This document shows, in pieces, positions 51,456 to 61,686 of a DNA stretch of 64,000 nucleotides. Source of the DNA: Spirochaetia bacterium (lineage in GTDB: Bacteria; Spirochaetota; Spirochaetia; UBA9216); contig OZ223269.1 of the NCBI GenBank assembly GCA_965140585.1, positions 832,001 through 896,000 on the forward strand, read 5' to 3'. The notes beneath the pieces are model-generated. The model saw only the letters and a program-made list of their open reading frames with translations, had not been told where the DNA came from and made no database searches. Position numbers and translations under genes: made by a program. Position 1 is the stretch's first letter; each line of letters begins with the position of its first letter.

Positions 51456-52997
51456 TTAGTCATTCTCGGATGACATATCCAGAGTTTCAGTCTGTGTAAA
51501 GCGGTAATATTCGGTATCAGAAGGTTTGAAGCCATATATGCTTAACTCTCCCGGCACCATAACAAGTGTACGCTCGATAATTCTGTTTTTATTTTCTTCT
51601 GAAAAATCAATAGAAAAGGCTCTTGTATCAACTTCAATACCTGAATTATCAACAATTTTCAAACTTAAAACAGGCGTATCTGCTGAGTAAACCGCGTATC
51701 CGCCGGAAATCTCTTCAAAGCTGTTTTTCATGTGGAAGGATGTTCCGTAAAATTCGATGATATCTCCGGCATCACTTATATACTGCCCATTAAGCTCCGG
51801 TAATTCTATTGCCTCTGAAGCCTTTCGGAGGGTCTTGATGGTATCAAATTTTTCACGTTCTCCCATACGGTAGTAATTATCTGTCCAGACATCATTAGGT
51901 GAAATAACCCTGGTCTGATTGTCAATATCCTTGACTGTTAAACGTATCTCATCAAGGTTAACAATCCGGACATAAACTTCAATTTCTATATAATTTATTA
52001 TTTCATTCTGAGCACGTATATACAGAAGATTACTCAATACCTTGTACGAATTAGTCCATTTAAAGTTTTCCTGTATTCGGTCACTGTAAAATGTAATAGT
52101 CTCGGCTTTCGGGTCCATAAATACAATTATACTATTGTTTCCAGAGGACGAATTTTCGGTAAACCACGGTCCGTTTATATAACCGTAGAAATTTTCATCC
52201 GGGCCGCTGTAAATGTCTGCAAGCTGTTTTTCTTCTATGGTTGTATACTCAAGTTCTTCTTCTTTAAGCTTAATATATTTTTTCAGCGGGAAATCCCAGA
52301 AATAAATAGACTGAATAAGATTTATTTTTCCGTCGTTGCCTGATTTTTCAGTGGATGCAGAAATTGTATAGCTAACACCGTCTTTCTGGCCTGATTCGTA
52401 AGCCATGCTGCGTTTAACCGGAATAATCTCAATTGCTCCTGGCTGTTTAAGACTGAAAATAGAAGAATAATTAAGTCCGCTGCCACTGCTCTCATTATTT
52501 TTCCAAAATACATCGAGCGTTGTGTTTCCTTCTGAATCCCTTCCTGAACATACAATCTGATTTGAATGATCTCCGATTAAATCCTCCAGATAAACATGGA
52601 ATGACCTTCCGCTTGTTGCGGATGTAGTACCTTCCCAGGCTCTGACATAATCACCTTTGACATTATCATAATCTGCTACAGCTATATAAATTTCAAGCGC
52701 CGGATTCTGCCGGTTTTTAAGTACAATAATCTGCTCATCCGATGTATCAAGATCCAGATTGAGGTTAATAGTACTTAAAACAGTTTCATCGCCTTTGATA
52801 ACAATATTTGGTTTTGTTTCCTGAATACTGAAGCTGTCTTCATACTTATCATCATCTGAAATATTATCTTCATCAGGGGCAGGGGTAAGTTGAGTAACAC
52901 TTTCGGGTCTTTCGTAAACCTCGGAAGCTCTGTTACAGGAATATAAAGTGCTTAAAAGCATTATTACTAAAAAAACCAGTATATTTTTCTTTATCAT
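51456..52997 (-). CDS. Pallilysin (TP0751)-related adhesin-like lipoprotein
   Basis: Lipoprotein signal LSTLYS-C; NLDLDTSDEQI, EDLIGDH motifs; position between SPOR and VWA genes as recalled for Treponema. Confidence 0.7.
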   Translation of the reverse strand: MIKKNILVFLVIMLLSTLYSCNRASEVYERPESVTQLTPAPDEDNISDDDKYEDSFSIQETKPNIVIKGDETVLSTINLNLDLDTSDEQIIVLKNRQNPALEIYIAVADYDNVKGDYVRAWEGTTSATSGRSFHVYLEDLIGDHSNQIVCSGRDSEGNTTLDVFWKNNESSGSGLNYSSIFSLKQPGAIEIIPVKRSMAYESGQKDGVSYTISASTEKSGNDGKINLIQSIYFWDFPLKKYIKLKEEELEYTTIEEKQLADIYSGPDENFYGYINGPWFTENSSSGNNSIIVFMDPKAETITFYSDRIQENFKWTNSYKVLSNLLYIRAQNEIINYIEIEVYVRIVNLDEIRLTVKDIDNQTRVISPNDVWTDNYYRMGEREKFDTIKTLRKASEAIELPELNGQYISDAGDIIEFYGTSFHMKNSFEEISGGYAVYSADTPVLSLKIVDNSGIEVDTRAFSIDFSEENKNRIIERTLVMVPGELSIYGFKPSDTEYYRFTQTETLDMSSEND

Positions 52998-53001
52998 AGA
53001 T

Positions 53002-53994
53002 TCACACGAAGTATTTTCTAAGCATTTCTAACACTTTTTTGCGTATCTCTTCAAGTGGGAATTTACTCTTGAATCCTGCTGCTGTTTTATGACCGCCTCC
53101 TCCGAAAACCTGTGCAATAAAAGCAACATCAATATTACCTTTGGAACGAAGCGAACATCTGAGAATCCCCTCAAGATTTTCTTTAAAAAATATTGAAACC
53201 TTGATAGCCTCACTTTTTAAAGGCAGGTTTATCAGGGAGTCGGCCTCTTCATACATGGCACCGCTTTTAATAATGTCATCTTTGAGCATTGTTTGTATAG
53301 CAACATTGTGATCATAAAAGAACTCAAGAGTTGATAAAACTCTTGACTGAAGCATCAACGATGATATCGAATTGCTTTCATATAATTTTGAATATATGAA
53401 ATTAGGGTTAACCCCAAGACTTACACATCTTTCAGCAATAGAAAATGTTTTGGCTGTGGTTTTAGGATAGATAAAAGAACCTGTGTCATACACGATTCCC
53501 AGATAAAGTGCCTGTGCCATTGCAAGTGTAAGTTTCAGGTTCATGGCTTCAAAAAGCTCAAAAAGCATCTCGCATGTGGAAGAGGCTTCATTTTCAATAT
53601 GATTGGCTGATAAAACAGCATCACCGCCTTCATGATGATCAAAAATGAAAAAATCCTTAACTTTCGTGAGGATACAATCCTTTACAGCTCCGATATTATT
53701 AATATCGTTTGTATCAAGAATAATTAGAACCCAGTCTTTTATATCTTCAGGAAGAACGGCCTCATTGTTAAGAAGCTGAACTTCATCATCTGTATCGAGA
53801 AATCGGTATTTTTCTCCCATTGGATCGGCATTGAATATGATTGTTTGTTTACCTAAAGACCTGAGCGCATGACTGGCAGCTATTTCACTGCCTATTGCAT
53901 CTCCGTCTGGAGTTTCATGAGCGGTTAGTATAAATTTACTGTTGCTTTCGATAAAATCAATTATTGCCTGAAATCTCATTGCGTCTTTTTTCAT
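53002..53994 (-). CDS. nrnA: DHH/DHHA1 phosphoesterase (NrnA/Pde2-like)
   Basis: HETPDGDAIGS, FDHH, YDTGSF, CSLRS, GGGGHKTAAG. Confidence 0.9.
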   Translation of the reverse strand: MKKDAMRFQAIIDFIESNSKFILTAHETPDGDAIGSEIAASHALRSLGKQTIIFNADPMGEKYRFLDTDDEVQLLNNEAVLPEDIKDWVLIILDTNDINNIGAVKDCILTKVKDFFIFDHHEGGDAVLSANHIENEASSTCEMLFELFEAMNLKLTLAMAQALYLGIVYDTGSFIYPKTTAKTFSIAERCVSLGVNPNFIYSKLYESNSISSLMLQSRVLSTLEFFYDHNVAIQTMLKDDIIKSGAMYEEADSLINLPLKSEAIKVSIFFKENLEGILRCSLRSKGNIDVAFIAQVFGGGGHKTAAGFKSKFPLEEIRKKVLEMLRKYFV

Positions 53995-55120
53995 CCTTTT
54001 CAGCCGAAGCCCTGATGATATAATTTCTTATAATAATAAATGCTGCTACTGCTGCAGCAATAACTGCCAGAATTATTATAATTATAAGAAATTTTGAAGA
54101 AGTTTTGCTTCCATCTGCGGAATTATTTTGAATATTTTCACTGCTTTCCGTTGAAAATTTACCATTGTTTACTTCAATCTGATAATCAAAGACGGCAGGA
54201 ATAAATGGAGTATCACCAGAAAAGTTGAAGAGAAAAGAACCTGAATGTCTTCCGGGGGATAGTTCACTTGATAATTTAAGCGGTATTTTAACCTCTACAG
54301 AGGTTTCAGCTGGAATTTTTATTTCATAGGGTTCATCAAGAACTTCGTAGTTACTGCCCCGTTCCTGGTACAGTATTCTGCTGATCACCACAGTACGTTC
54401 ATCGCTGTATCCGTCACTCTCCAGACTGATATATATACTGTCATCTGAGACAGTAAAACCGGATGAAAGAATCCGTCCCAGGGTATCTTCTGCCGGAGTG
54501 GTTTCCGGAACATTACTGTTAAAATCAATTTCTTCATATGTGGTTAACAGCTCCTTTGAAAGCTCTTCAACAGCTGATTCACTGCCAACACCAAGAAGGA
54601 TGATTTTCCAGCCTTTTTTCTGAATAGTTTTTGTGTTTTCGAGAAAGTTATGATTAAAAGATCCGTCGGGGGAGTAGTATGGACTGTTTTCAGGAGCTTC
54701 CTGCTTTCCGTCTGTCAATAAAATAAGGTATTGTCTGCTGTTTTCAGTTTTATAAGCAGAAAGAGAATTTTCAAGGCTGTCCAAAGCATTCCCTATATCT
54801 GTAAAACGGCCGTCAGCTTTAAGGTTATGTAGATCATTTGATATCTGTTCAAGCCCCTTGAAGGTAAGTGTTTTATTAAAAACAACATCAGCCTTGCCAT
54901 AGAATTCAATTACAGTGAGATGGTCTCCCTCAATAAGAAAATTATCAATGAAATTTTCTATAATATACGCACTGACATCTTTAATTTTTTCAACCATCGA
55001 CTTGCTTTTATCAACAACAAGAAACATATCAATATTCTCAGTCCTTTTATCAGCATAGAGTGAGGCAGTGAGACCAGAAAATATTAATATAAAAAGAAAG
55101 AACTTGTATTTTTTAATCAT
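53957..55120 (-). CDS. VWA-domain membrane protein (TP0750-like)
   Basis: Signal peptide, MIDAS VDKSKSM, FTDIGNAL, LLTDG; C-terminal TM. Confidence 0.88.
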   Translation of the reverse strand: MIKKYKFFLFILIFSGLTASLYADKRTENIDMFLVVDKSKSMVEKIKDVSAYIIENFIDNFLIEGDHLTVIEFYGKADVVFNKTLTFKGLEQISNDLHNLKADGRFTDIGNALDSLENSLSAYKTENSRQYLILLTDGKQEAPENSPYYSPDGSFNHNFLENTKTIQKKGWKIILLGVGSESAVEELSKELLTTYEEIDFNSNVPETTPAEDTLGRILSSGFTVSDDSIYISLESDGYSDERTVVISRILYQERGSNYEVLDEPYEIKIPAETSVEVKIPLKLSSELSPGRHSGSFLFNFSGDTPFIPAVFDYQIEVNNGKFSTESSENIQNNSADGSKTSSKFLIIIIILAVIAAAVAAFIIIRNYIIRASAEKDEKRRNEISGNN

Positions 55121-55267: not shown

Positions 55268-57331
55268 ATGGGAAGCATAGATCTACCTAAAAGTCCAATG
55301 GTATTCCATCCTGAAAAGAGGAGTGCGGTGGGCTCCAGGAACTCTCTCGCTCAGGAAAGCAGGGACCAGCAGGCAGAAGTAGAAAGACTGCTCGAAGAAG
55401 AAGTAGATAAAGTCGTTAACCATATCAATGCCAAACTACCTGAAGACGTCCTCTCTAAATTGGATGTCATGGGTGGCTTAAAAGAGAAAGTTTATAACTA
55501 TTTCAACCAGAACTACCAGAATATGTTCAACCGTTACATAGTTACAACTGAAGATGAAATGGTTAAAAAGGTAAGAAACTTCATTGATAAAGAAGAAATG
55601 AAAGTTCTTACCAGGTACACCCCCAAAGAAATAGCAGCGCTGCTTGAAGAAGTAGGCGGTATGGACAGATTCAATACCGGTGAAATTGAGAAATCAATTG
55701 TTAATATGTATGGTCACCTTCAGGGGCATATACAGAGAGGTATGAATGATCTTGAAAACCTTACCAACTCACTCCTTAGACAGAAAACCGACGTTGGTGC
55801 TTTCATAAGAGGCGAGAATGCTTATTCGGTAGTTAAATGTTCATTCAAGGACAGTATCGAGAAACCAAAGACTGTATGCAACGTAAAGCTTTCAGTTAAC
55901 ATACTCGATTCCGAGCTTATAAGTCCTATTTTTCACTATCAGGCTACAGTTGAGTACTTAATCAAAGACCTTGTTTCAAAGCAGATTATTGATGCAATTG
56001 ACAAGGAAATTGAGAATCTTAAGGATGAAAGACTTGATAAGGGTCTTGAAGAACTTAATGACAGTGAAATCATCTTTCAGAAGATGGGTCGTGTAGAAAA
56101 TCATACCGCTGATGAAGTAAACAATGCAAAATCAAACAGGTATAAGTACATTGCCAAGAACATCATGGAAAAGGTTGAAGGCCTTAGAGCTGAGATTGAT
56201 CCTAATGAGTTCGATCCTCTGAACATCCGTGAAAATCTTAAGAAAATCATGGATATAGAAAATATCAGAAACAGAGGCTACAACACAGCAGTTAATTCAA
56301 TTACAAGTATTCTTGATACTTCAAAAATGGGTTATCAGTATATCGAGAACCTCAAAAATGCAAGAGAACTTGTGATTAGAGAGTATGAAGATACAGATGC
56401 AGCAATTCTTCCTGATGAAAGATATAACATCCGTCTCAAATACTACGACAATGCCCAGCTTATCGAAGAAAGAAAAGCTTATGATGTTCAGGTAAAATCT
56501 TTCGAGGTTGAAGTTGAACATGTATGGGATGTTCTTGAAATGGTTTACAGCGACGGTAAGAGATTCAAAGGTGTTGTTGATTTTAAAGATCTTTCCGACA
56601 GATACAAGAATAAAATAAAGAAGAACATCAAGGCAAAAACCGGTGATCCTCTCTACGAAGACATTGAAAAGAGCTGGGATGAAATATCTTTTGTAAGCGC
56701 AGCTGAAACTGAAGTTGAAAAAATGAACAGAACCTATGTTCTGGAAAAAGATAAACTTAAGAAAAAGCTTATTCTTATGAGAGACAAACTTCAGGATATG
56801 TACAGCTATAAGTACCCGATTCAGAGACGAGTACTTGAAGACAGACTTACTTTTCTCGAAGCTGAGTTCAATAAATTTGATTATCTTATCAATCCTTATC
56901 ATATTCAGCCAGGACTTCTTCTTGATGTTGATATTACTTCAATTAAAAGAAAGAAAGCTACTTTGGACGGTATGGCAAATGTTCTTAATGAATTCCTTCA
57001 TGGTGTTTCCAAAGGGTTCCAGGATGCGGCATTTGCAGCGTTCTCAAGAAGACGTTCTACTGTAAGAGAAGATATTGATATGAGTTTTGCTTCTGATCTT
57101 GCTGAAGATGATATGCTTAAGCAGAAATCTTTAGGTGAATCATATCTTGATATGCTTAATTCACCGGATGACAGTCCTGCACTGGCCGACACTACAATCA
57201 AAACAAAGCCTAAGGCTCCTGCTAAAAAGGCTGCACCGAAAACTAAAGCCAAGTCTAAGGGTGTTGTTGACAACGACAAGACTAAAACAAGGCGGGGCAG
57301 ACCAAGAAGATCAAATCTGGATACAATCTAA
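55268..57331 (+). CDS. cfpA: Cytoplasmic filament protein CfpA
   Basis: N-terminus [47 protein letters not shown] and FSRRRSTVR, typical of treponemal CfpA; coiled-coil rich. Confidence 0.93.
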
Positions 57332-57332
57332 C

Positions 57333-57370
57333 AAAAAATGCAGCCCCTCAATTTTTGAGGGGCATTTTTT
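57333..57370 (+). terminator. Rho-independent terminator after cfpA
   Basis: GCCCCTCAA-ttt-TTGAGGGGC followed by ATTTTTT. Confidence 0.8.
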
Positions 57371-57384
57371 ACCGAGGGAACATA

Positions 57385-58407
57385 ATGAACGATACTTTAC
57401 GCGTCTATGATCATCTGTCTGACAGGAATGGTTTTAATAATGCATTAATTCATTTTCAGTCTGTAATGGGTATTATCGGCGATTTTGAAGATGGATACAA
57501 TCTGGCTGATATATTGAATGATCTTGTGAATGAGAAGGAAATTAAGCAGGATCAGATGCCGTCGATAGTGAGTGCACTTCTCGTTGATAAATATTCCTAC
57601 AACTTTAAATCCGGTAATTTTATAAACAGTTTAATTGATTTTGAATATATCGCTTCTTCATTGGAGAAGCTTAAATCCTATGATTTACTGATTTCTTATA
57701 TCCACCCGGAGCTTGGATATAATGTGATAAATCCTAAGAATCCTGATAGCTGGAAAAATGTCTCAGAGTTTAGAAAAAATGAATATTTCACAGTGTATGC
57801 CGGCAAATTCACTGATGACATGACCAACTCTAAAGAGGCTGAAATGTTAATTCAGAAGGTTTTTGACCTTTTTGAGGGCAAAAAACTTAAACTTCCTGAA
57901 AATCTATTAAAAGGTAAGTATAAGTTTAAGACTCTTTCAGAGGAACCGGAGAAGAAGGCTGCACCGAAGAAAGTAGCCAAGAATCCGGTTAAAAAGACTT
58001 CAGCTTCCCAAAAAGCCGAAACATCATATCAGGATGAAGAACATGAAGAGGTCGCAGCCAGCGGACCTGTGAATACTTCAAAAATGACACCTTTATATTC
58101 AGTTCCGGTAACCAATGAACTCTTTCATAATGGTAATGTCGAAGCCTGGAAAAGGATAATTCAAAGTTTTAAAGTTAAAAACCCAGACCTCGAAGTATAT
58201 ATATTTTATGATGGTGAAAGAATTCAGAATATTGCATCATTGTTTAAATGGGGTAAAGTTAAACATGGAAGTGCTATTCTGTTTGCTGTAGCAGGTGAAA
58301 ATATTCAGGATGTTGCAAAACTTCAGAAATATTTAAAACAGGGAGCGAGCCCTCAGTTTGAAGCCTTCTTAAGGTTTCCGGTTAATACTGTTTTAAATCT
58401 CTTCTAA
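57385..58407 (+). CDS. Hypothetical protein with K/A/P-rich linker and C-terminal HPr-like domain
   Basis: Start moved to ATG 57385 (GAGGG RBS); C-terminal VPVTNELFHNG..EVYIFYDGERI..GKVKHGSAILFAVAGE resembles HPr. Confidence 0.75.
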   Translation: MNDTLRVYDHLSDRNGFNNALIHFQSVMGIIGDFEDGYNLADILNDLVNEKEIKQDQMPSIVSALLVDKYSYNFKSGNFINSLIDFEYIASSLEKLKSYDLLISYIHPELGYNVINPKNPDSWKNVSEFRKNEYFTVYAGKFTDDMTNSKEAEMLIQKVFDLFEGKKLKLPENLLKGKYKFKTLSEEPEKKAAPKKVAKNPVKKTSASQKAETSYQDEEHEEVAASGPVNTSKMTPLYSVPVTNELFHNGNVEAWKRIIQSFKVKNPDLEVYIFYDGERIQNIASLFKWGKVKHGSAILFAVAGENIQDVAKLQKYLKQGASPQFEAFLRFPVNTVLNLF

Positions 58408-58423
58408 TAATAAGGGTTATTTC

Positions 58424-61060
58424 ATGGATATCAAATCGAATATATATTTTATCAGTAAGAATAAATCATCAAAAAACGCACCTGATCAGAATAAGATAGG
58501 AATCAGAGGGCAGCAGACTTATGACCTCATTTCTATGGGAATGCCTGTAGTTCCCGGTGTAATACTCGGAACAGAAATAACTTCAAATCTTGATGATGTT
58601 GATGCAGTTATTGATGCTCTTAATCCCTTTTTTAATGATTATACAAAAGAAAGCGGTAAAACCTTCAATAGTGATAAAAATCCGATGCTTCTTAAACTGG
58701 TTATCAGTTCAAATCTTGCTATAGCAAGGTATCCTGTCCTTCATAATTTCGGACTTGCGGATAACACGTTTGAAGGCTTCAGTGAGTTTGTAGGTAAAGA
58801 TTTCGCATATCAGGAAATTCTTTTTATGCTCAACGGTATTTACGCTATTGAAGAAAGAATTGCTGAACTTAATGAAGATACTAAACTTGCTAATAAATAT
58901 CATCAGTACATAAAGGAAACCGGACGTTTTCTTAGTAAGAACATGAAGGCTGATGAATGTAAGAAATATCTTGAACAGAAAAAGAAAGAACTTCCTGAAG
59001 AGCTTTTCAGTACCGCCAGGACTCAGCTTGCAGCAGTTTTAAAACGTATAAGCTACTTGATTAAACTGGAAGACAGTGAAAATACCGGTGTTGCAGTTCT
59101 TATTCAGCCTATGGTTTACGGAAACTATGGTAAAGACAGCTATTCAGGATATTTCACTACAAGAAATACAATTACCGGGAATGGTGTTCTCGAAGGTGAA
59201 TATTTTACAAATAAATTTAATTCACCGGAATCAAGCGGAAAATCGATCAAAAATATTGATAAAAAATACCTTAAACAGTTTGAAGATATAGCCTTAAAAC
59301 TTGAAACTACATATCTTGATATCAGGAAAATTGGTTTTACTATTGAAAACGGAAGACTGTCGCTAATAAATCAAAATCCGATCAGTGAAAAATCAACCAG
59401 GGCTGATATTCAGCTTCTTCTGGACCTTAAAAATAAAAAACTTATAAATGATACTCAGGTTATTAATGCAATAAAACCTTCTGAACTAAATGAGCTTCTG
59501 CACCCGGTTATAGATCTTGATTCGGTAAAATCCATGCCGAAGGTAGAAGGCGGTATTTCTGGTGCTCCCGGCGCCGCAGTCGGAAGGGTCTTCTTTTCTA
59601 CTGAGGGACTTATTGAAGAGTATAAAACTTCAAGAATGAATGATATTGATGACAGATTGATTTTGTGTCTTACATCCAGTTTTGCAGAAGATGTAAAGGC
59701 AATAGAAATTGCTACCGGCGTACTTTCTTCCGAAGGCGGCTATTCGGCTCATGCTTCAGTAGTTGCAAGACAGTACGGTAAAGTATCGCTTGTTAATCCT
59801 GATATTAAAATTAGCGGTAAAAAGGCGACAATAGGCGGCAAGACTATTAAAGAAGGTGATTTCATAACTCTCAATGTTCCTGAATTTGATACCCCCTCAA
59901 TCGTATGGGGTAAAGCTCAGCTTATAAAACCGGATCCTGCCAAGAACGGTCTGATAGATTTCCTTAAAATTGTGAAAGAAAATATAAAAGGATTTGATAT
60001 CCGCGCAAACTGTGATAAGGCTGCAGATGCAAAACTTGCTCTTGCATTCGGTGCGGACGGAATCGGGTTATGCAGAACAGAGCATATGTTTTTCGATGAA
60101 AAACGTATCAATGTGTTTCGTGAAATGATTTTTGCCGAGACCTCTGAAGAGAGAGCAAAAGTTCTTAAAAAACTTAAACAGATGCAGAAGAAGGACTTTC
60201 AGGATCTGTTTAAGGTAATGAACGGAAAGGAAATTAATATCCGCCTTCTTGATGCACCTCTGCATGAATTTCTACCCCATAATACTGCTGAGGTAAAAGC
60301 ATTTCTCGATTACCTTAAAACTTCCGGGACGAAAATTACTGAAAAACAGCTTAGGGAAAAATCAGAAAATTTAAAAGAATTCAATCCCATGCTTGGTCAC
60401 AGAGGATGCAGAATAGCAATCAGTTATCCGGAAATTTATCAGATGCAGATCGAATCAATCTTTGAGGCTGCTTACGCTGTTAAATCAAAAGGTGTAGATG
60501 TAAAACCTGAAATAATGATACCGCTGATTATGAATGAAACTGAGCTTAAAATGATTCTTTACGGAAAAAAAATCGAGGGTTCTCATTATAAAGGGCTTGT
60601 TGAAATAGAGCAGAACGTACGTGAACGGCTGAAAGTAAAACCGGTTGATTATAAAGTCGGAACAATGATTGAACTTCCTGCAGCGGCTCTGTCTGCTGAT
60701 AATATTGCAAGATATGCACAATTTTTCTCTTTCGGCACCAATGATCTTACACAGACAACATTAGGTCTCTCAAGAGATGATTTTACTTCATTTATGCCTG
60801 ACTATACACTTTACGATATTATGAGCGGTAATCCTTTCAGGACACTGGAACGGCCTGTAAAAGAACTTATTGCTACCGCCGTTCAGCGGGGAACTATAAC
60901 AAGGCCTGACCTTAAGAAGGGACTTTGCGGAGAACATGGAGCAGCACCCGAGAATATTGAGTTCTGTATTGAAAACGGACTTGATTATGTATCATGTTCA
61001 ACCTATTCAGTACCTATTGCTGCTCTTGCAACGGCTCAGGCGCTGCTTAAGACGAATTAG
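58424..61060 (+). CDS. PPDK-like PEP-utilising protein with degenerate nucleotide-binding domain
   Basis: GGYSAHASVVAR phospho-His domain; GIGLCRTEHMF, EFNPMLGHRGCR, FSFGTNDLTQ, GLCGEHG intact; ATP-grasp motifs altered. Confidence 0.9.
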   Translation: MDIKSNIYFISKNKSSKNAPDQNKIGIRGQQTYDLISMGMPVVPGVILGTEITSNLDDVDAVIDALNPFFNDYTKESGKTFNSDKNPMLLKLVISSNLAIARYPVLHNFGLADNTFEGFSEFVGKDFAYQEILFMLNGIYAIEERIAELNEDTKLANKYHQYIKETGRFLSKNMKADECKKYLEQKKKELPEELFSTARTQLAAVLKRISYLIKLEDSENTGVAVLIQPMVYGNYGKDSYSGYFTTRNTITGNGVLEGEYFTNKFNSPESSGKSIKNIDKKYLKQFEDIALKLETTYLDIRKIGFTIENGRLSLINQNPISEKSTRADIQLLLDLKNKKLINDTQVINAIKPSELNELLHPVIDLDSVKSMPKVEGGISGAPGAAVGRVFFSTEGLIEEYKTSRMNDIDDRLILCLTSSFAEDVKAIEIATGVLSSEGGYSAHASVVARQYGKVSLVNPDIKISGKKATIGGKTIKEGDFITLNVPEFDTPSIVWGKAQLIKPDPAKNGLIDFLKIVKENIKGFDIRANCDKAADAKLALAFGADGIGLCRTEHMFFDEKRINVFREMIFAETSEERAKVLKKLKQMQKKDFQDLFKVMNGKEINIRLLDAPLHEFLPHNTAEVKAFLDYLKTSGTKITEKQLREKSENLKEFNPMLGHRGCRIAISYPEIYQMQIESIFEAAYAVKSKGVDVKPEIMIPLIMNETELKMILYGKKIEGSHYKGLVEIEQNVRERLKVKPVDYKVGTMIELPAAALSADNIARYAQFFSFGTNDLTQTTLGLSRDDFTSFMPDYTLYDIMSGNPFRTLERPVKELIATAVQRGTITRPDLKKGLCGEHGAAPENIEFCIENGLDYVSCSTYSVPIAALATAQALLKTN

Positions 61061-61137: not shown

Positions 61138-61686
61138 TTAGAAAGTACCGAAATTCTTTACGCCTTCAATCACCATCTTGGCAGCCTGTTCTGAATCTCT
61201 TTTGGGTACCTGACATTCTCTGTTAAAGGTCTGTACAAAGAAAAACTCCAATGTTTCGAAAACTTCCGGTTGATGATAAAAACATAAAGCAAAATTGATA
61301 CCGGTTGGTTTAAGAATAGTAAATGATGAATAAGTTATAATTGGCTTTTTAGGAACCATAATTTTATACTGGTTCTTTGAATTATGAATGTTAAGCTCAT
61401 TAAATCTGAACGGAATAGATTTACCGTATTCCCTGGAAACCGGTTCGATATATTTCTTGGGATACATTGAAGGTTCAACCAGTATGTACAGTTTACTTCC
61501 GTCAGTCTGAAATGTAAGACCTTCACCGCTTAAACTGATATTTTTAACTCCTGCATAGGCTACGACTTCATAAATTGCATATGGGGAATTGTTACTGAAA
61601 AATGAAGAAACAATATAACCGCCGTCCTGCGGAAGTTTACCTTCATTGTATGCCTGAAATAAATCGAGTGCTTTTACGTTACCCAT
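61138..61686 (-). CDS. Hypothetical cytoplasmic protein
   Basis: 182-aa ORF with AGGAGG RBS and own promoter. Confidence 0.8.
   Translation of the reverse strand: MGNVKALDLFQAYNEGKLPQDGGYIVSSFFSNNSPYAIYEVVAYAGVKNISLSGEGLTFQTDGSKLYILVEPSMYPKKYIEPVSREYGKSIPFRFNELNIHNSKNQYKIMVPKKPIITYSSFTILKPTGINFALCFYHQPEVFETLEFFFVQTFNRECQVPKRDSEQAAKMVIEGVKNFGTF

What the first reader, a model, noticed from the sequence alone, without database searches (positions are those of the whole stretch)
55268..61060. Candidate PPDK-derived Enzyme-I/HPr-like phosphorelay encoded with the cytoplasmic filament gene cfpA
Seen: three co-oriented genes, cfpA, a 340-aa hypothetical and an 878-aa PPDK homologue; the last two are 16 nt apart. 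The PPDK homologue keeps the PEP/pyruvate barrel and the phospho-His but has lost the ATP-grasp catalytic residues. The hypothetical ends in an HPr-like domain with a His at the His15-equivalent position. Established: PTS Enzyme I is homologous to the PEP-binding and phospho-His domains of PPDK and passes phosphate PEP -> His(EI) -> His15(HPr). CfpA forms spirochaete cytoplasmic filaments linked to cell division and chromosome segregation. A cfpA-hypothetical-'ppdK' order is recalled from T. pallidum (TP0748-0747-0746), where the last gene is annotated as a metabolic enzyme. Inference: the pair is not gluconeogenic but a dedicated PEP-sensing His phosphorelay. PPDK would be repurposed as EI, with the dead ATP-grasp domain as a docking or sensor module, and the relay would couple the PEP:pyruvate ratio to filament assembly or nucleoid handling. 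I am not aware of this being described.
Basis: partly seen in the sequence, partly recalled or inferred. Interest (0 to 1): 0.92.

Follow-up and report, generated by a model that had tools for sequence, protein, structure and literature searches.

The report
Filament-linked PPDK paralogue, nucleotide site re-tooled
Next to the spirochaete cytoplasmic-filament gene cfpA sits a conserved gene pair: a protein of unknown function and a copy of the enzyme pyruvate phosphate dikinase that keeps its PEP and phospho-histidine sites but has replaced its ATP-binding residues, so it is probably not the glycolytic enzyme it is annotated as, in the syphilis spirochaete's relatives too.

Summary
The three genes are real and lie as described: cfpA (55268-57331), a 340-aa TP_0747-family protein (57385-58407) and an 878-aa PPDK paralogue (58424-61060), the last two 16 nt apart.

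The paralogue keeps the phospho-His motif and all PEP/pyruvate-site motifs. The nucleotide, Mg and PPi motifs of its N-terminal domain are replaced throughout a deep spirochaete clade. That domain is still under strong purifying selection (dN/dS 0.02), so it is re-tooled rather than dead.

The genome also holds a canonical PPDK. A 1.1-Mb Treponema-family genome, G102, holds only the divergent copy.

The three genes co-occur in 104 of the 108 sampled genomes (of 301) that have any of them. They co-occur even where they are unlinked.

The HPr idea is not supported by sequence. Pfam and PDB profiles gave no HPr hit, and the profile-profile comparison gave P = 0.086, with 10 of 120 shuffles scoring as high. 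The invariant His248 is real.

Best reading: a PEP-charged phospho-His protein that works with the TP_0747-family protein and the CfpA filament, with an unknown acceptor. It is a new variant of the PEP-utilising enzyme family and of moderate to high interest.

The parts
55268..57331 (+). cfpA, cytoplasmic filament protein A (687 aa). It has a basic Lys/Ala/Pro-rich C-terminal tail ending in an RRGRPRR (AT-hook-like) motif.
   Evidence: NF040882 scores 1187.9 bits against a cut-off of 500. Translation. GRP[KR] lies in the last 45 residues of 51 of 76 CfpA ORFs from related loci.
57343..57363 (+). Terminator-like hairpin (9-bp stem, 6 G-C pairs, then ATTTTTT). It lies 12 nt after the cfpA stop codon and before the next gene's ribosome-binding site.
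   Evidence: This is a pattern match only: 5 such sites were found in the region against 4.2 expected by chance.
57385..58407 (+). TP_0747-family protein (340 aa). It has a variable N-domain (about residues 1-175, Pfam PF27497 TP_0747_N), a basic disordered linker (about 176-231) and an ultra-conserved C-domain (232-340).
   Evidence: family; alignment; linker net-positive in 59 of 74 members, length 19-150; dN/dS 0.09, 0.11 and 0.012 for the three parts.
58078..58404 (+). C-terminal domain of the TP_0747-family protein. It carries the invariant block NELFHNGNVEAWK (His248 = 58126-58128), LFKWGKVK, GAS and a terminal LF.
   Evidence: 39 of 109 columns are invariant in 44 sequences. No HPr similarity was found.
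58424..61060 (+). PPDK paralogue (878 aa). Its parts are a re-tooled ATP-grasp-derived N-domain (residues 1-340, 58424-59443), a swivelling His domain with linkers (341-520; His443 = 59750-59752) and a PEP/pyruvate barrel (521-878).

Best explanation
This is a spirochaete-specific three-gene module. cfpA comes first and probably has its own, possibly leaky, terminator. A tightly coupled pair follows: a TP_0747-family protein and a PPDK paralogue.

The paralogue keeps everything needed to take phosphate from PEP onto its swivelling His443. Its ATP-grasp-derived N-domain has exchanged the residues that bind ATP, Mg and PPi in true PPDKs for a new, conserved set (R28, K91, V93, S95, H107, F265, R301, K323). 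It therefore most likely no longer makes or uses ATP.

Instead it is charged by PEP. It then either passes the phosphate to an acceptor other than AMP/PPi or changes conformation according to the PEP:pyruvate ratio. It does this together with the TP_0747-family protein and the CfpA filament.

Shown here: the gene content, the residue pattern, purifying selection, co-occurrence and synteny.

Inferred: PEP autophosphorylation, the existence and identity of an acceptor, and physical association with the filament.
For: 1. Catalytic pattern.
- Among 14 canonical and 46 divergent spirochaete sequences, 73 of the 118 N-domain columns that are invariant in canonical PPDKs are changed in the divergent clade. 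The figure is 16 of 33 for the His domain plus linkers and 10 of 98 for the PEP domain.
- The K22 equivalent becomes R in 45 of 46 sequences and the R92 equivalent becomes V in 45 of 46.
- The SMPGMMDT loop is lost, with a 1-residue deletion.
- The D321 equivalent is variable. The E323 equivalent is R, G or K (28, 7 and 7 of 46). The LQTRNGKRT motif is changed.
- GG..HA.VVAR, GLCRTEHMF, RLLD.PLHEF, GTMIE.P, FGTNDLTQ and CGEHG are all kept.

2. The N-domain is not decaying. Against the closest relative (one pair, window against L108), dN/dS is 0.020 for the N-domain, 0.010 for the His domain and 0.009 for the PEP domain.

3. It is a paralogue.
- The same genome holds a canonical PPDK (1340.5 bits) and a pyruvate kinase.
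- Canonical and divergent sequences fall on opposite sides of a branch with support 1.0.
- NCBI sources name some members 'putative PEP-binding protein'.

4. Linkage.
- The order cfpA, TP_0747-like, paralogue is found in 30 of 30 loci examined.
- In a sample of 301 genomes of the phylum, 108 have at least one of the three genes and 104 have all three. The four exceptions are draft genomes of 80, 82, 93 and 97% completeness.
- In one family (f44, for example G076 and G146) the three genes lie on different contigs yet are all kept. In another (f20) cfpA is elsewhere but the pair stays adjacent.

5. Published hints in T. denticola. TDE0842-0844 are repressed together (PMC3914990, Table 5 passage). 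TDE0844 is band 1 of the sedimenting envelope fraction, in which CfpA is band 3 (PMC3931704, Table 2 passage).

6. The objection that the T. pallidum-like genome needs this enzyme is weakened. G102 has no pyruvate kinase and no canonical PPDK, but it has a GTP-type PEPCK and an oxaloacetate decarboxylase beta subunit. These give a PEP to oxaloacetate to pyruvate route.
Against: - No experiment or model here shows autophosphorylation, binding or transfer.
- Part of the ATP-grasp core is retained (QPMVYGN, TRN..TG, and G26/G29). K22 to R is conservative, and the new K91 lies two residues before the lost R92 on the same strand. An unusual nucleotide or phosphate site therefore cannot be excluded.
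- The literature treats TP0746 as the glycolytic enzyme (PMC10013896 and PMC8525777, passages read).
- Co-occurrence among relatives is not independent evidence. It partly reflects one ancestral gain followed by block losses.
- cfpA seems to have its own terminator, so the pair may be a separate transcription unit.
- Co-fractionation in an envelope pellet is indirect evidence.
- Which residues are catalytic in C. symbiosum PPDK is mostly recalled. Only Arg95 and Glu324 were checked in a paper.
Confidence: 0.5

Rival explanations
1. The paralogue acts like Enzyme I, and the C-terminal domain of the TP_0747-family protein is an HPr-like carrier. Phosphate flows from PEP to His443 to His248 and then regulates the filament or the nucleoid.
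For: - The pair is 16 nt apart and co-occurs across the phylum.
- The C-domain is as conserved as CfpA itself. His248 is invariant inside a 13-residue invariant block, and a second His (His294) is conserved in at least 90% of sequences.
- The best local profile alignment to HPr is collinear (77 columns) and places His248 on His15.
Against: - That alignment is not significant: probability 0.66%, P 0.086, and 10 of 120 column-shuffled HPr profiles score as high.
- Pfam PTS-HPr matches 0 of 74 family members at E up to 5.
- A six-frame HPr search of the genome finds only the two canonical HPr genes.
- PDB profile searches list no HPr among 11 and 6 weak hits.
- HPr's Arg17 is absent: the motif reads HNGN.
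- Canonical HPr is present in 61 of 61 sampled spirochaete genomes whether or not they have cfpA.
- In 58 loci the C-domain's distances follow CfpA (r 0.70, partial 0.43). They do not follow the paralogue's N-domain or His domain (partial -0.02 and 0.10, exploratory).
Confidence: 0.15
2. It is a working pyruvate, phosphate dikinase with an atypical nucleotide site. On this view it is a second metabolic isoenzyme, and the only one in reduced genomes such as G102, and its place beside cfpA is historical accident.
For: - The three-domain architecture is full-length and collinear.
- The ATP-grasp core strands are retained, and there may be compensating basic residues (R28, K91, R301, K323).
- G102, G159 and G210 (each 99% complete) have only this copy, and G102 has no pyruvate kinase.
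- The literature assumes this function (PMC10013896, passages read).
Against: - R92, the Gly-rich loop and both acidic Mg ligands (D321, E323) are lost in the whole clade.
- It scores below the curated equivalog cut-off (638.5 against 843.45) and below the Pfam PPDK_N cut-off.
- It co-occurs with cfpA rather than with glycolytic need. Most carriers also have a canonical PPDK.
- A PEPCK plus oxaloacetate decarboxylase bypass exists in G102.
Confidence: 0.17
3. It is a structural pseudoenzyme. The paralogue and the TP_0747-family protein would be scaffold or anchoring parts of the filament apparatus, with no phosphotransfer at all.
For: TDE0844 is a major band in the sedimenting envelope fraction together with CfpA (PMC3931704, Table 2 passage). 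The N-domain is remodelled.
Against: Every catalytic motif of the PEP barrel and the phospho-His motif is invariant or nearly so in 47 sequences. These two domains are more conserved within the divergent clade than within canonical PPDKs (60-64% against 53-54%, and 65-69% against 61%). That pattern is hard to explain without catalysis.
Confidence: 0.08

Closest known systems
Pyruvate, phosphate dikinase (EC 2.7.9.1; C. symbiosum 1DIK/1KBL; TIGR01828)
   Same: It has the same three-domain order and aligns over the full length (E 1.6e-139). The catalytic His motif and all PEP/pyruvate-site motifs are kept.
   Different: The nucleotide/Mg/PPi-site residues are replaced clade-wide, and the score is below the curated cut-off. 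It is always paired with a TP_0747-family gene and co-occurs with cfpA.
PTS Enzyme I / EI-Ntr (TIGR01417)
   Same: The PEP-binding barrel and the phospho-His domain are homologous. Enzyme I uses PEP to charge a His that then serves regulation or transport. This is the closest analogy for how the paralogue may work.
   Different: Only the barrel matches (residues 651-864; 98.3 bits against a cut-off of 341.7). No match to Enzyme I's N-terminal part was seen, and an ATP-grasp-derived domain stands there instead. The genome has four separate EI-like genes and two HPr genes.
VadK (Rv1127c) of Mycobacterium tuberculosis
   Same: It is a PPDK descendant that left central metabolism and became an autophosphorylating regulatory histidine kinase (PMC13400623, abstract read). 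This is a precedent for re-use of PPDK in regulation.
   Different: From recall, not checked here: VadK keeps the ATP side and lacks the PEP barrel. The spirochaete protein is the mirror image, keeping the PEP side and changing the ATP side. The two lineages are unrelated.
Rifampin phosphotransferase and other swivel-His enzymes
   Same: The family re-uses a phosphate-carrying His swivel domain between two substrate domains, one of which can be exchanged (PMC4844700, abstract in the search listing).
   Different: There the ATP-grasp domain is kept and the PEP domain is replaced by a drug-binding domain. Here the PEP domain is kept.
HPr (PF00381)
   Same: The size is similar (about 85-109 residues), and one invariant His lies early in the domain.
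   Different: There is no significant sequence or profile similarity, and the His-Ala-Arg-Pro motif is missing. The fold is untested.

Membership tests
Pyruvate, phosphate dikinase (TIGR01828 equivalog) | Three-domain architecture: ATP-grasp N-domain, central His domain, C-terminal PEP barrel, collinear over the full length | tested here: met
   Residues 17-876 align to 10-871 of 2DIK. TIGR01828 matches positions 11-864 of 865.
Pyruvate, phosphate dikinase (TIGR01828 equivalog) | Score above the curated equivalog cut-off | tested here: not met
   638.5 bits against 843.45. The orthologue in G102 scores 608.5, and the canonical paralogue in the same genome scores 1340.5.
Pyruvate, phosphate dikinase (TIGR01828 equivalog) | Nucleotide/Mg/PPi-site residues (C. 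symbiosum K22, R92, Gly-rich loop, D321, E323, Q335, R337; the list is recalled, and R92 and E323 were checked in PMC5507339) | tested here: not met
   K becomes R in 45 of 46, R becomes V in 45 of 46, the loop is lost, D321 is variable, and E323 is R, G or K.
Pyruvate, phosphate dikinase (TIGR01828 equivalog) | Catalytic His and PEP/pyruvate-site residues (His455, R561, R617, E745, N768, D769, C831; the list is recalled) | tested here: met
   The motifs are invariant or nearly invariant in 47 sequences.
Pyruvate, phosphate dikinase (TIGR01828 equivalog) | ATP + Pi + pyruvate <-> AMP + PPi + PEP activity | not testable with these tools
   This needs an enzyme assay.
PTS Enzyme I (TIGR01417) | Full-length match, including the N-terminal part that binds HPr, above the cut-off | tested here: not met
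   Only residues 651-864 match model positions 348-530 of 565, at 98.3 bits against 341.7.
HPr (PF00381) | Match to the HPr model or profile | tested here: not met
   0 of 74 family members match at E up to 5. The six-frame search finds only 2 canonical HPr genes in the genome. hhalign gives P 0.086, and 10 of 120 shuffles score as high.
HPr (PF00381) | Active-site His followed by the conserved Arg (His15-x-Arg17-Pro; motif seen in the 31 HPr sequences) | tested here: not met
   The His is invariant, but the motif is F-H-N-G-N in 44 of 44 sequences.
HPr (PF00381) | Open-faced beta-sandwich fold | not testable with these tools
CfpA (NF040882) | Score above the equivalog cut-off | tested here: met
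   1187.9 bits against 500, covering positions 1-605 of 605.
TP_0747 family (Pfam PF27497, TP_0747_N) | Carries the family's N-terminal domain | tested here: met
   PF27497 is precomputed on the window's own protein and on all 120 listed homologues. The Atlas names the family. The local Pfam copy lacks this model.

The most novel reading that the evidence does not exclude
Spirochaetes that build CfpA filaments carry a dedicated PEP-charged phospho-His device descended from PPDK. It reports the PEP:pyruvate state to the cytoplasmic filament through the TP_0747-family protein, either by phosphotransfer (possibly to its invariant His248) or by a phosphorylation-driven swivel. A corollary follows for the T. 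pallidum-like reduced genome: it has neither a true PPDK nor a pyruvate kinase. Its PEP would then reach pyruvate through PEPCK plus oxaloacetate decarboxylase or through this device, which would change the accepted energy budget of its glycolysis.
Probability: 0.25. Interest if true: 0.85.

Novelty: new variant of a known kind. Interest (0 to 1): 0.62.

Why it matters
CfpA filaments are a spirochaete-specific cytoskeleton whose regulation is unknown. Two invariably associated partner genes, one with a readable chemistry (PEP to His), would make that question directly testable.

The finding also questions a standing annotation. The gene called ppdK in T. pallidum and T. denticola (TP0746, TDE0844) belongs to this divergent clade. 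Metabolic reconstructions that credit it with ATP formation from AMP and PPi rest on residues the protein does not have.

Searches with TP0746, TP0747, TDE0843/TDE0844 and 'pyruvate phosphate dikinase + Treponema + ATP-grasp' found no paper in the held library that describes this.

Tried and rejected
- **ESM Atlas.** It returned only the protein's own family and one unnamed 0.84 lead, with no structure.
- **Complex prediction.** The full paralogue was tested against the C-domain. The verdict was 'no answer' (ipSAE 0.02 and 0.13; the mark is 0.32). This counts neither for nor against binding.
- **HPr tests.** All came back negative or insignificant. Weak PDB hits (an RxLR effector repeat, folliculin, an MBD domain) are taken as chance.
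- **A CfpA::TP_0747_N 'fusion' (P0350).** It looked like a Rosetta-stone link. It is a single gene model from a mussel genome assembly, most likely two bacterial genes merged by a eukaryotic gene caller, so it was rejected.
- **Search for longer fused forms.** It found none, which is weak evidence.
- **RNA runs.** No RNA holder was listed, and read laying was not used.
- **The search of earlier findings.** It was closed.
- **Papers.** PMC94976 (the Izard 2001 cfpA mutant paper) is not held. The main text of the T. pallidum interactome paper PMC2386257 names none of TP0746-0748. Its supplementary tables, and those of the T. denticola transcriptome papers, could bear on binding and co-transcription but were closed. 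The last paper search was badly framed and gave nothing useful.
- **PEP + Pi to PPi idea.** I considered that the enzyme makes PPi from PEP and Pi for a PPi-dependent phosphofructokinase. Nothing here tests this, and it does not explain the tie to cfpA.
- **Mirror-tree comparison.** It is exploratory. The pairs are not independent, and the two slowest-evolving parts (CfpA and the C-domain) may correlate for that reason alone.

Full report
**What is there**

Between 55268 and 61060 lie three co-oriented ORFs.

- The first is CfpA (NF040882, 1187.9 bits against a cut-off of 500).
- The second is a 340-aa protein starting at ATG 57385, with GAGGGA 6-7 nt upstream. The alternative TTG start at 57355 lies inside a terminator-like hairpin (57343-57363, 9-bp stem followed by a T-run) that sits 12 nt after the cfpA stop.
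- The third starts 16 nt after the second and encodes 878 aa.

No terminator-like site separates genes two and three. A convergent gene follows at 61138. On the sequence, therefore, cfpA looks like a unit with its own terminator, which may be leaky, and the other two genes look like a bicistronic pair.

**The PPDK homologue**

It aligns end to end with C. symbiosum PPDK (E 1.6e-139). It nevertheless scores 638.5 bits against the curated TIGR01828 cut-off of 843.45. Pfam finds the PEP domain (230.8 bits) and the mobile His domain, but only a sub-threshold N-domain (23.1 against 27).

I aligned 14 canonical spirochaete PPDKs with 46 members of the divergent clade: 16 from genomes spread over the phylum, plus a random 30 of the 119 close homologues.

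| Domain | Columns invariant in canonical PPDKs | Changed in the divergent clade |
|---|---|---|
| N-domain | 118 | 73 |
| His domain plus linkers | 33 | 16 |
| PEP domain | 98 | 10 |

The changes fall on the motifs that form the nucleotide/Mg/PPi site:

- GGKGANL becomes G-x-RG (K to R in 45 of 46).
- VSVRSGA becomes K-x-V-x-S-P (R to V in 45 of 46).
- The SMPGMMDT loop is gone, with a one-residue deletion.
- MQDMEFT becomes I-R-x-I-[RK]-F-T. The D321 equivalent is variable and the E323 equivalent is R, G or K.
- LQTRNGKRT is altered.

Which of these residues are catalytic in C. symbiosum is mainly my recollection. PMC5507339 (passages read) confirms that the Flaveria equivalents of R92 and E323 bind ATP directly.

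In contrast, the phospho-His motif and the PEP-site motifs are invariant or nearly so in 47 sequences.

The N-domain is not decaying. It has its own near-invariant residues (R28, K91, V93, S95, H107, F265, R301, K323). Against the closest relative, L108 (one pair only), dN/dS is 0.020 for the N-domain, 0.010 for the His domain and 0.009 for the PEP domain. 'Re-tooled' describes it better than 'dead'.

**It is a paralogue, and in some genomes the only copy**

The window's genome also holds a canonical PPDK (1340.5 bits), four EI-like genes, two HPr genes and a pyruvate kinase. In a tree, the 14 canonical sequences form a clade with support 1.0 and all 46 divergent ones lie on the other side.

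G102 is a 1.1-Mb genome of the Treponema family. Its gene lengths agree with those published for TP0746 and TP0748 (PMC3373638, passages read). It has only the divergent copy (608.5 bits), no canonical PPDK and no pyruvate kinase. The literature takes that gene to be the glycolytic enzyme that makes ATP from PEP, AMP and PPi (PMC10013896, passages read).

G102 does have a GTP-type PEP carboxykinase and an oxaloacetate decarboxylase beta subunit. A route from PEP to pyruvate therefore exists without PPDK.

**The middle protein**

It belongs to a family of at least 3210 database proteins that carry Pfam PF27497, named TP_0747_N. A pattern scan of one genome per species confirmed 570 relatives, and all of the best 80 come from Spirochaetota records.

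It has three parts:

- a fast-evolving N-domain;
- a disordered linker of 19-150 residues, net-positive in 59 of 74 members;
- a C-domain of 109 residues with 39 invariant columns in 44 diverse sequences, including the 13-residue block NELFHNGNVEAWK with His248.

This C-domain is as conserved as CfpA itself: mean distance 0.255 against 0.23 over 58 loci.

**Is the C-domain HPr-like?**

- Pfam's HPr model matches 0 of 74 members at E up to 5.
- A six-frame search of the genome finds only the two true HPr genes.
- Profile searches of PDB sequences list no HPr among 11 and 6 weak hits.
- I built a profile of 31 spirochaete HPr sequences. The best local profile-profile alignment is collinear and does put His248 on His15. 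It scores 13.8, with probability 0.66% and P 0.086, and 10 of 120 column-shuffled HPr profiles score as high.
- The residues after the His are N-G-N, not A-R-P.

**Link to cfpA**

The order cfpA, TP_0747-like, paralogue holds in 30 of 30 loci from genomes across the phylum. In 8 of them the best single match to the paralogue starts at residue 195, because those lineages carry an insertion in the N-domain.

Counts in one sample of 301 genomes:

| Feature | Genomes (of 301) |
|---|---|
| CfpA | 107 |
| Middle protein (strong match, after dropping three hits with E about 1e-4) | 106 |
| Divergent N-domain (best E at most 2.4e-30; canonical N-domains score 5e-27 or weaker) | 106 |
| All three | 104 |
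| Any of the three | 108 |

The four exceptions are drafts of 80-97% completeness.

Within one family (f2), one genus has the set in 9 of 9 genomes and another in 0 of 12, so the genes are lost together. In family f44 the three genes lie on different contigs, yet all are kept. In f20 cfpA is elsewhere but the pair stays adjacent.

Related genomes are not independent observations, so I give no statistic.

Two published observations in T. denticola fit the link. TDE0842-0844 are repressed together in co-culture (PMC3914990, Table 5 passage). TDE0844 is the top band of the sedimenting envelope fraction, in which CfpA is also a major band (PMC3931704, Table 2 passage).

**Which partner does the C-domain follow?**

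In 58 of 81 loci with all three genes complete, I compared distance matrices. The C-domain's distances follow CfpA (r 0.70, partial 0.43). They do not follow the paralogue's N-domain or His domain (partial -0.02 and 0.10). This is exploratory, and both parts evolve slowly, which may explain the correlation. It points towards the C-domain facing the filament rather than the enzyme.

**Reading**

The best-supported account is a PEP-charged phospho-His protein derived from PPDK. It has given up nucleotide chemistry and serves the CfpA system together with the TP_0747-family protein. Whether it transfers phosphate (to His248, to CfpA, to a small molecule) or acts as a phosphorylation-driven switch is open.

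A PPDK descendant turned regulatory histidine kinase has just been described in M. tuberculosis (VadK; PMC13400623, abstract read). Re-use of this scaffold for regulation therefore has a precedent. The spirochaete protein would be a new variant that keeps the PEP side instead of the ATP side.

I found no paper in the held library that describes it.

Noticed in passing
window 51456-55120 (- strand): Three genes run divergently from cfpA: one with a pallilysin beta-barrel domain (51456-52997), a DHH/DHHA1 phosphoesterase (53002-53994) and a VWA-domain protein (53957-55120). From recall, pallilysin (TP0751) and a VWA protein (TP0750) also neighbour cfpA in T. pallidum, so the synteny may extend beyond the three genes studied.
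   Followed up: no
window about 57200-57331 (CfpA C-terminal tail): The CfpA tail is Lys/Ala/Pro-rich and ends in RRGRPRR, an AT-hook-like motif. GRP[KR] lies in the last 45 residues of 51 of 76 CfpA ORFs from related loci. Together with the basic linker of the TP_0747-family protein, this hints at DNA or nucleoid contact.
   Followed up: partly
G000:C9:384514-385475: A second pyruvate-kinase match in the window's genome is split into two adjacent frames (model positions 3-225 and 223-328). It may be a frameshifted or broken copy.
   Followed up: no
loci L032, L033, L035-L037, L039, L043, L045, L062: In some lineages (families f11, f25, f33) the paralogue is about 965-972 aa, with an insertion of roughly 90 residues inside the N-domain.
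   Followed up: no
P0350: An 841-aa 'protein' joins CfpA to a TP_0747 N-domain. It comes from a freshwater-mussel genome assembly. This is probably a spirochaete contig in a eukaryotic assembly, with two bacterial genes merged by the gene caller.
   Followed up: yes
G078:C2:27588-30800 (L061): One genome carries by far the most divergent paralogue (27% identity in the N-domain, with altered G-R-L-G and H-G-H-F motifs). It also carries the most divergent TP_0747 C-domain (52% identity). The two may have drifted together.
   Followed up: no
G000, contigs C2, C6, C7, C9: The genome has four EI-like genes (open frames of 574, 604, 744 and 767 aa) and two HPr genes. Canonical HPr was found in 61 of 61 sampled genomes of the phylum.
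   Followed up: no
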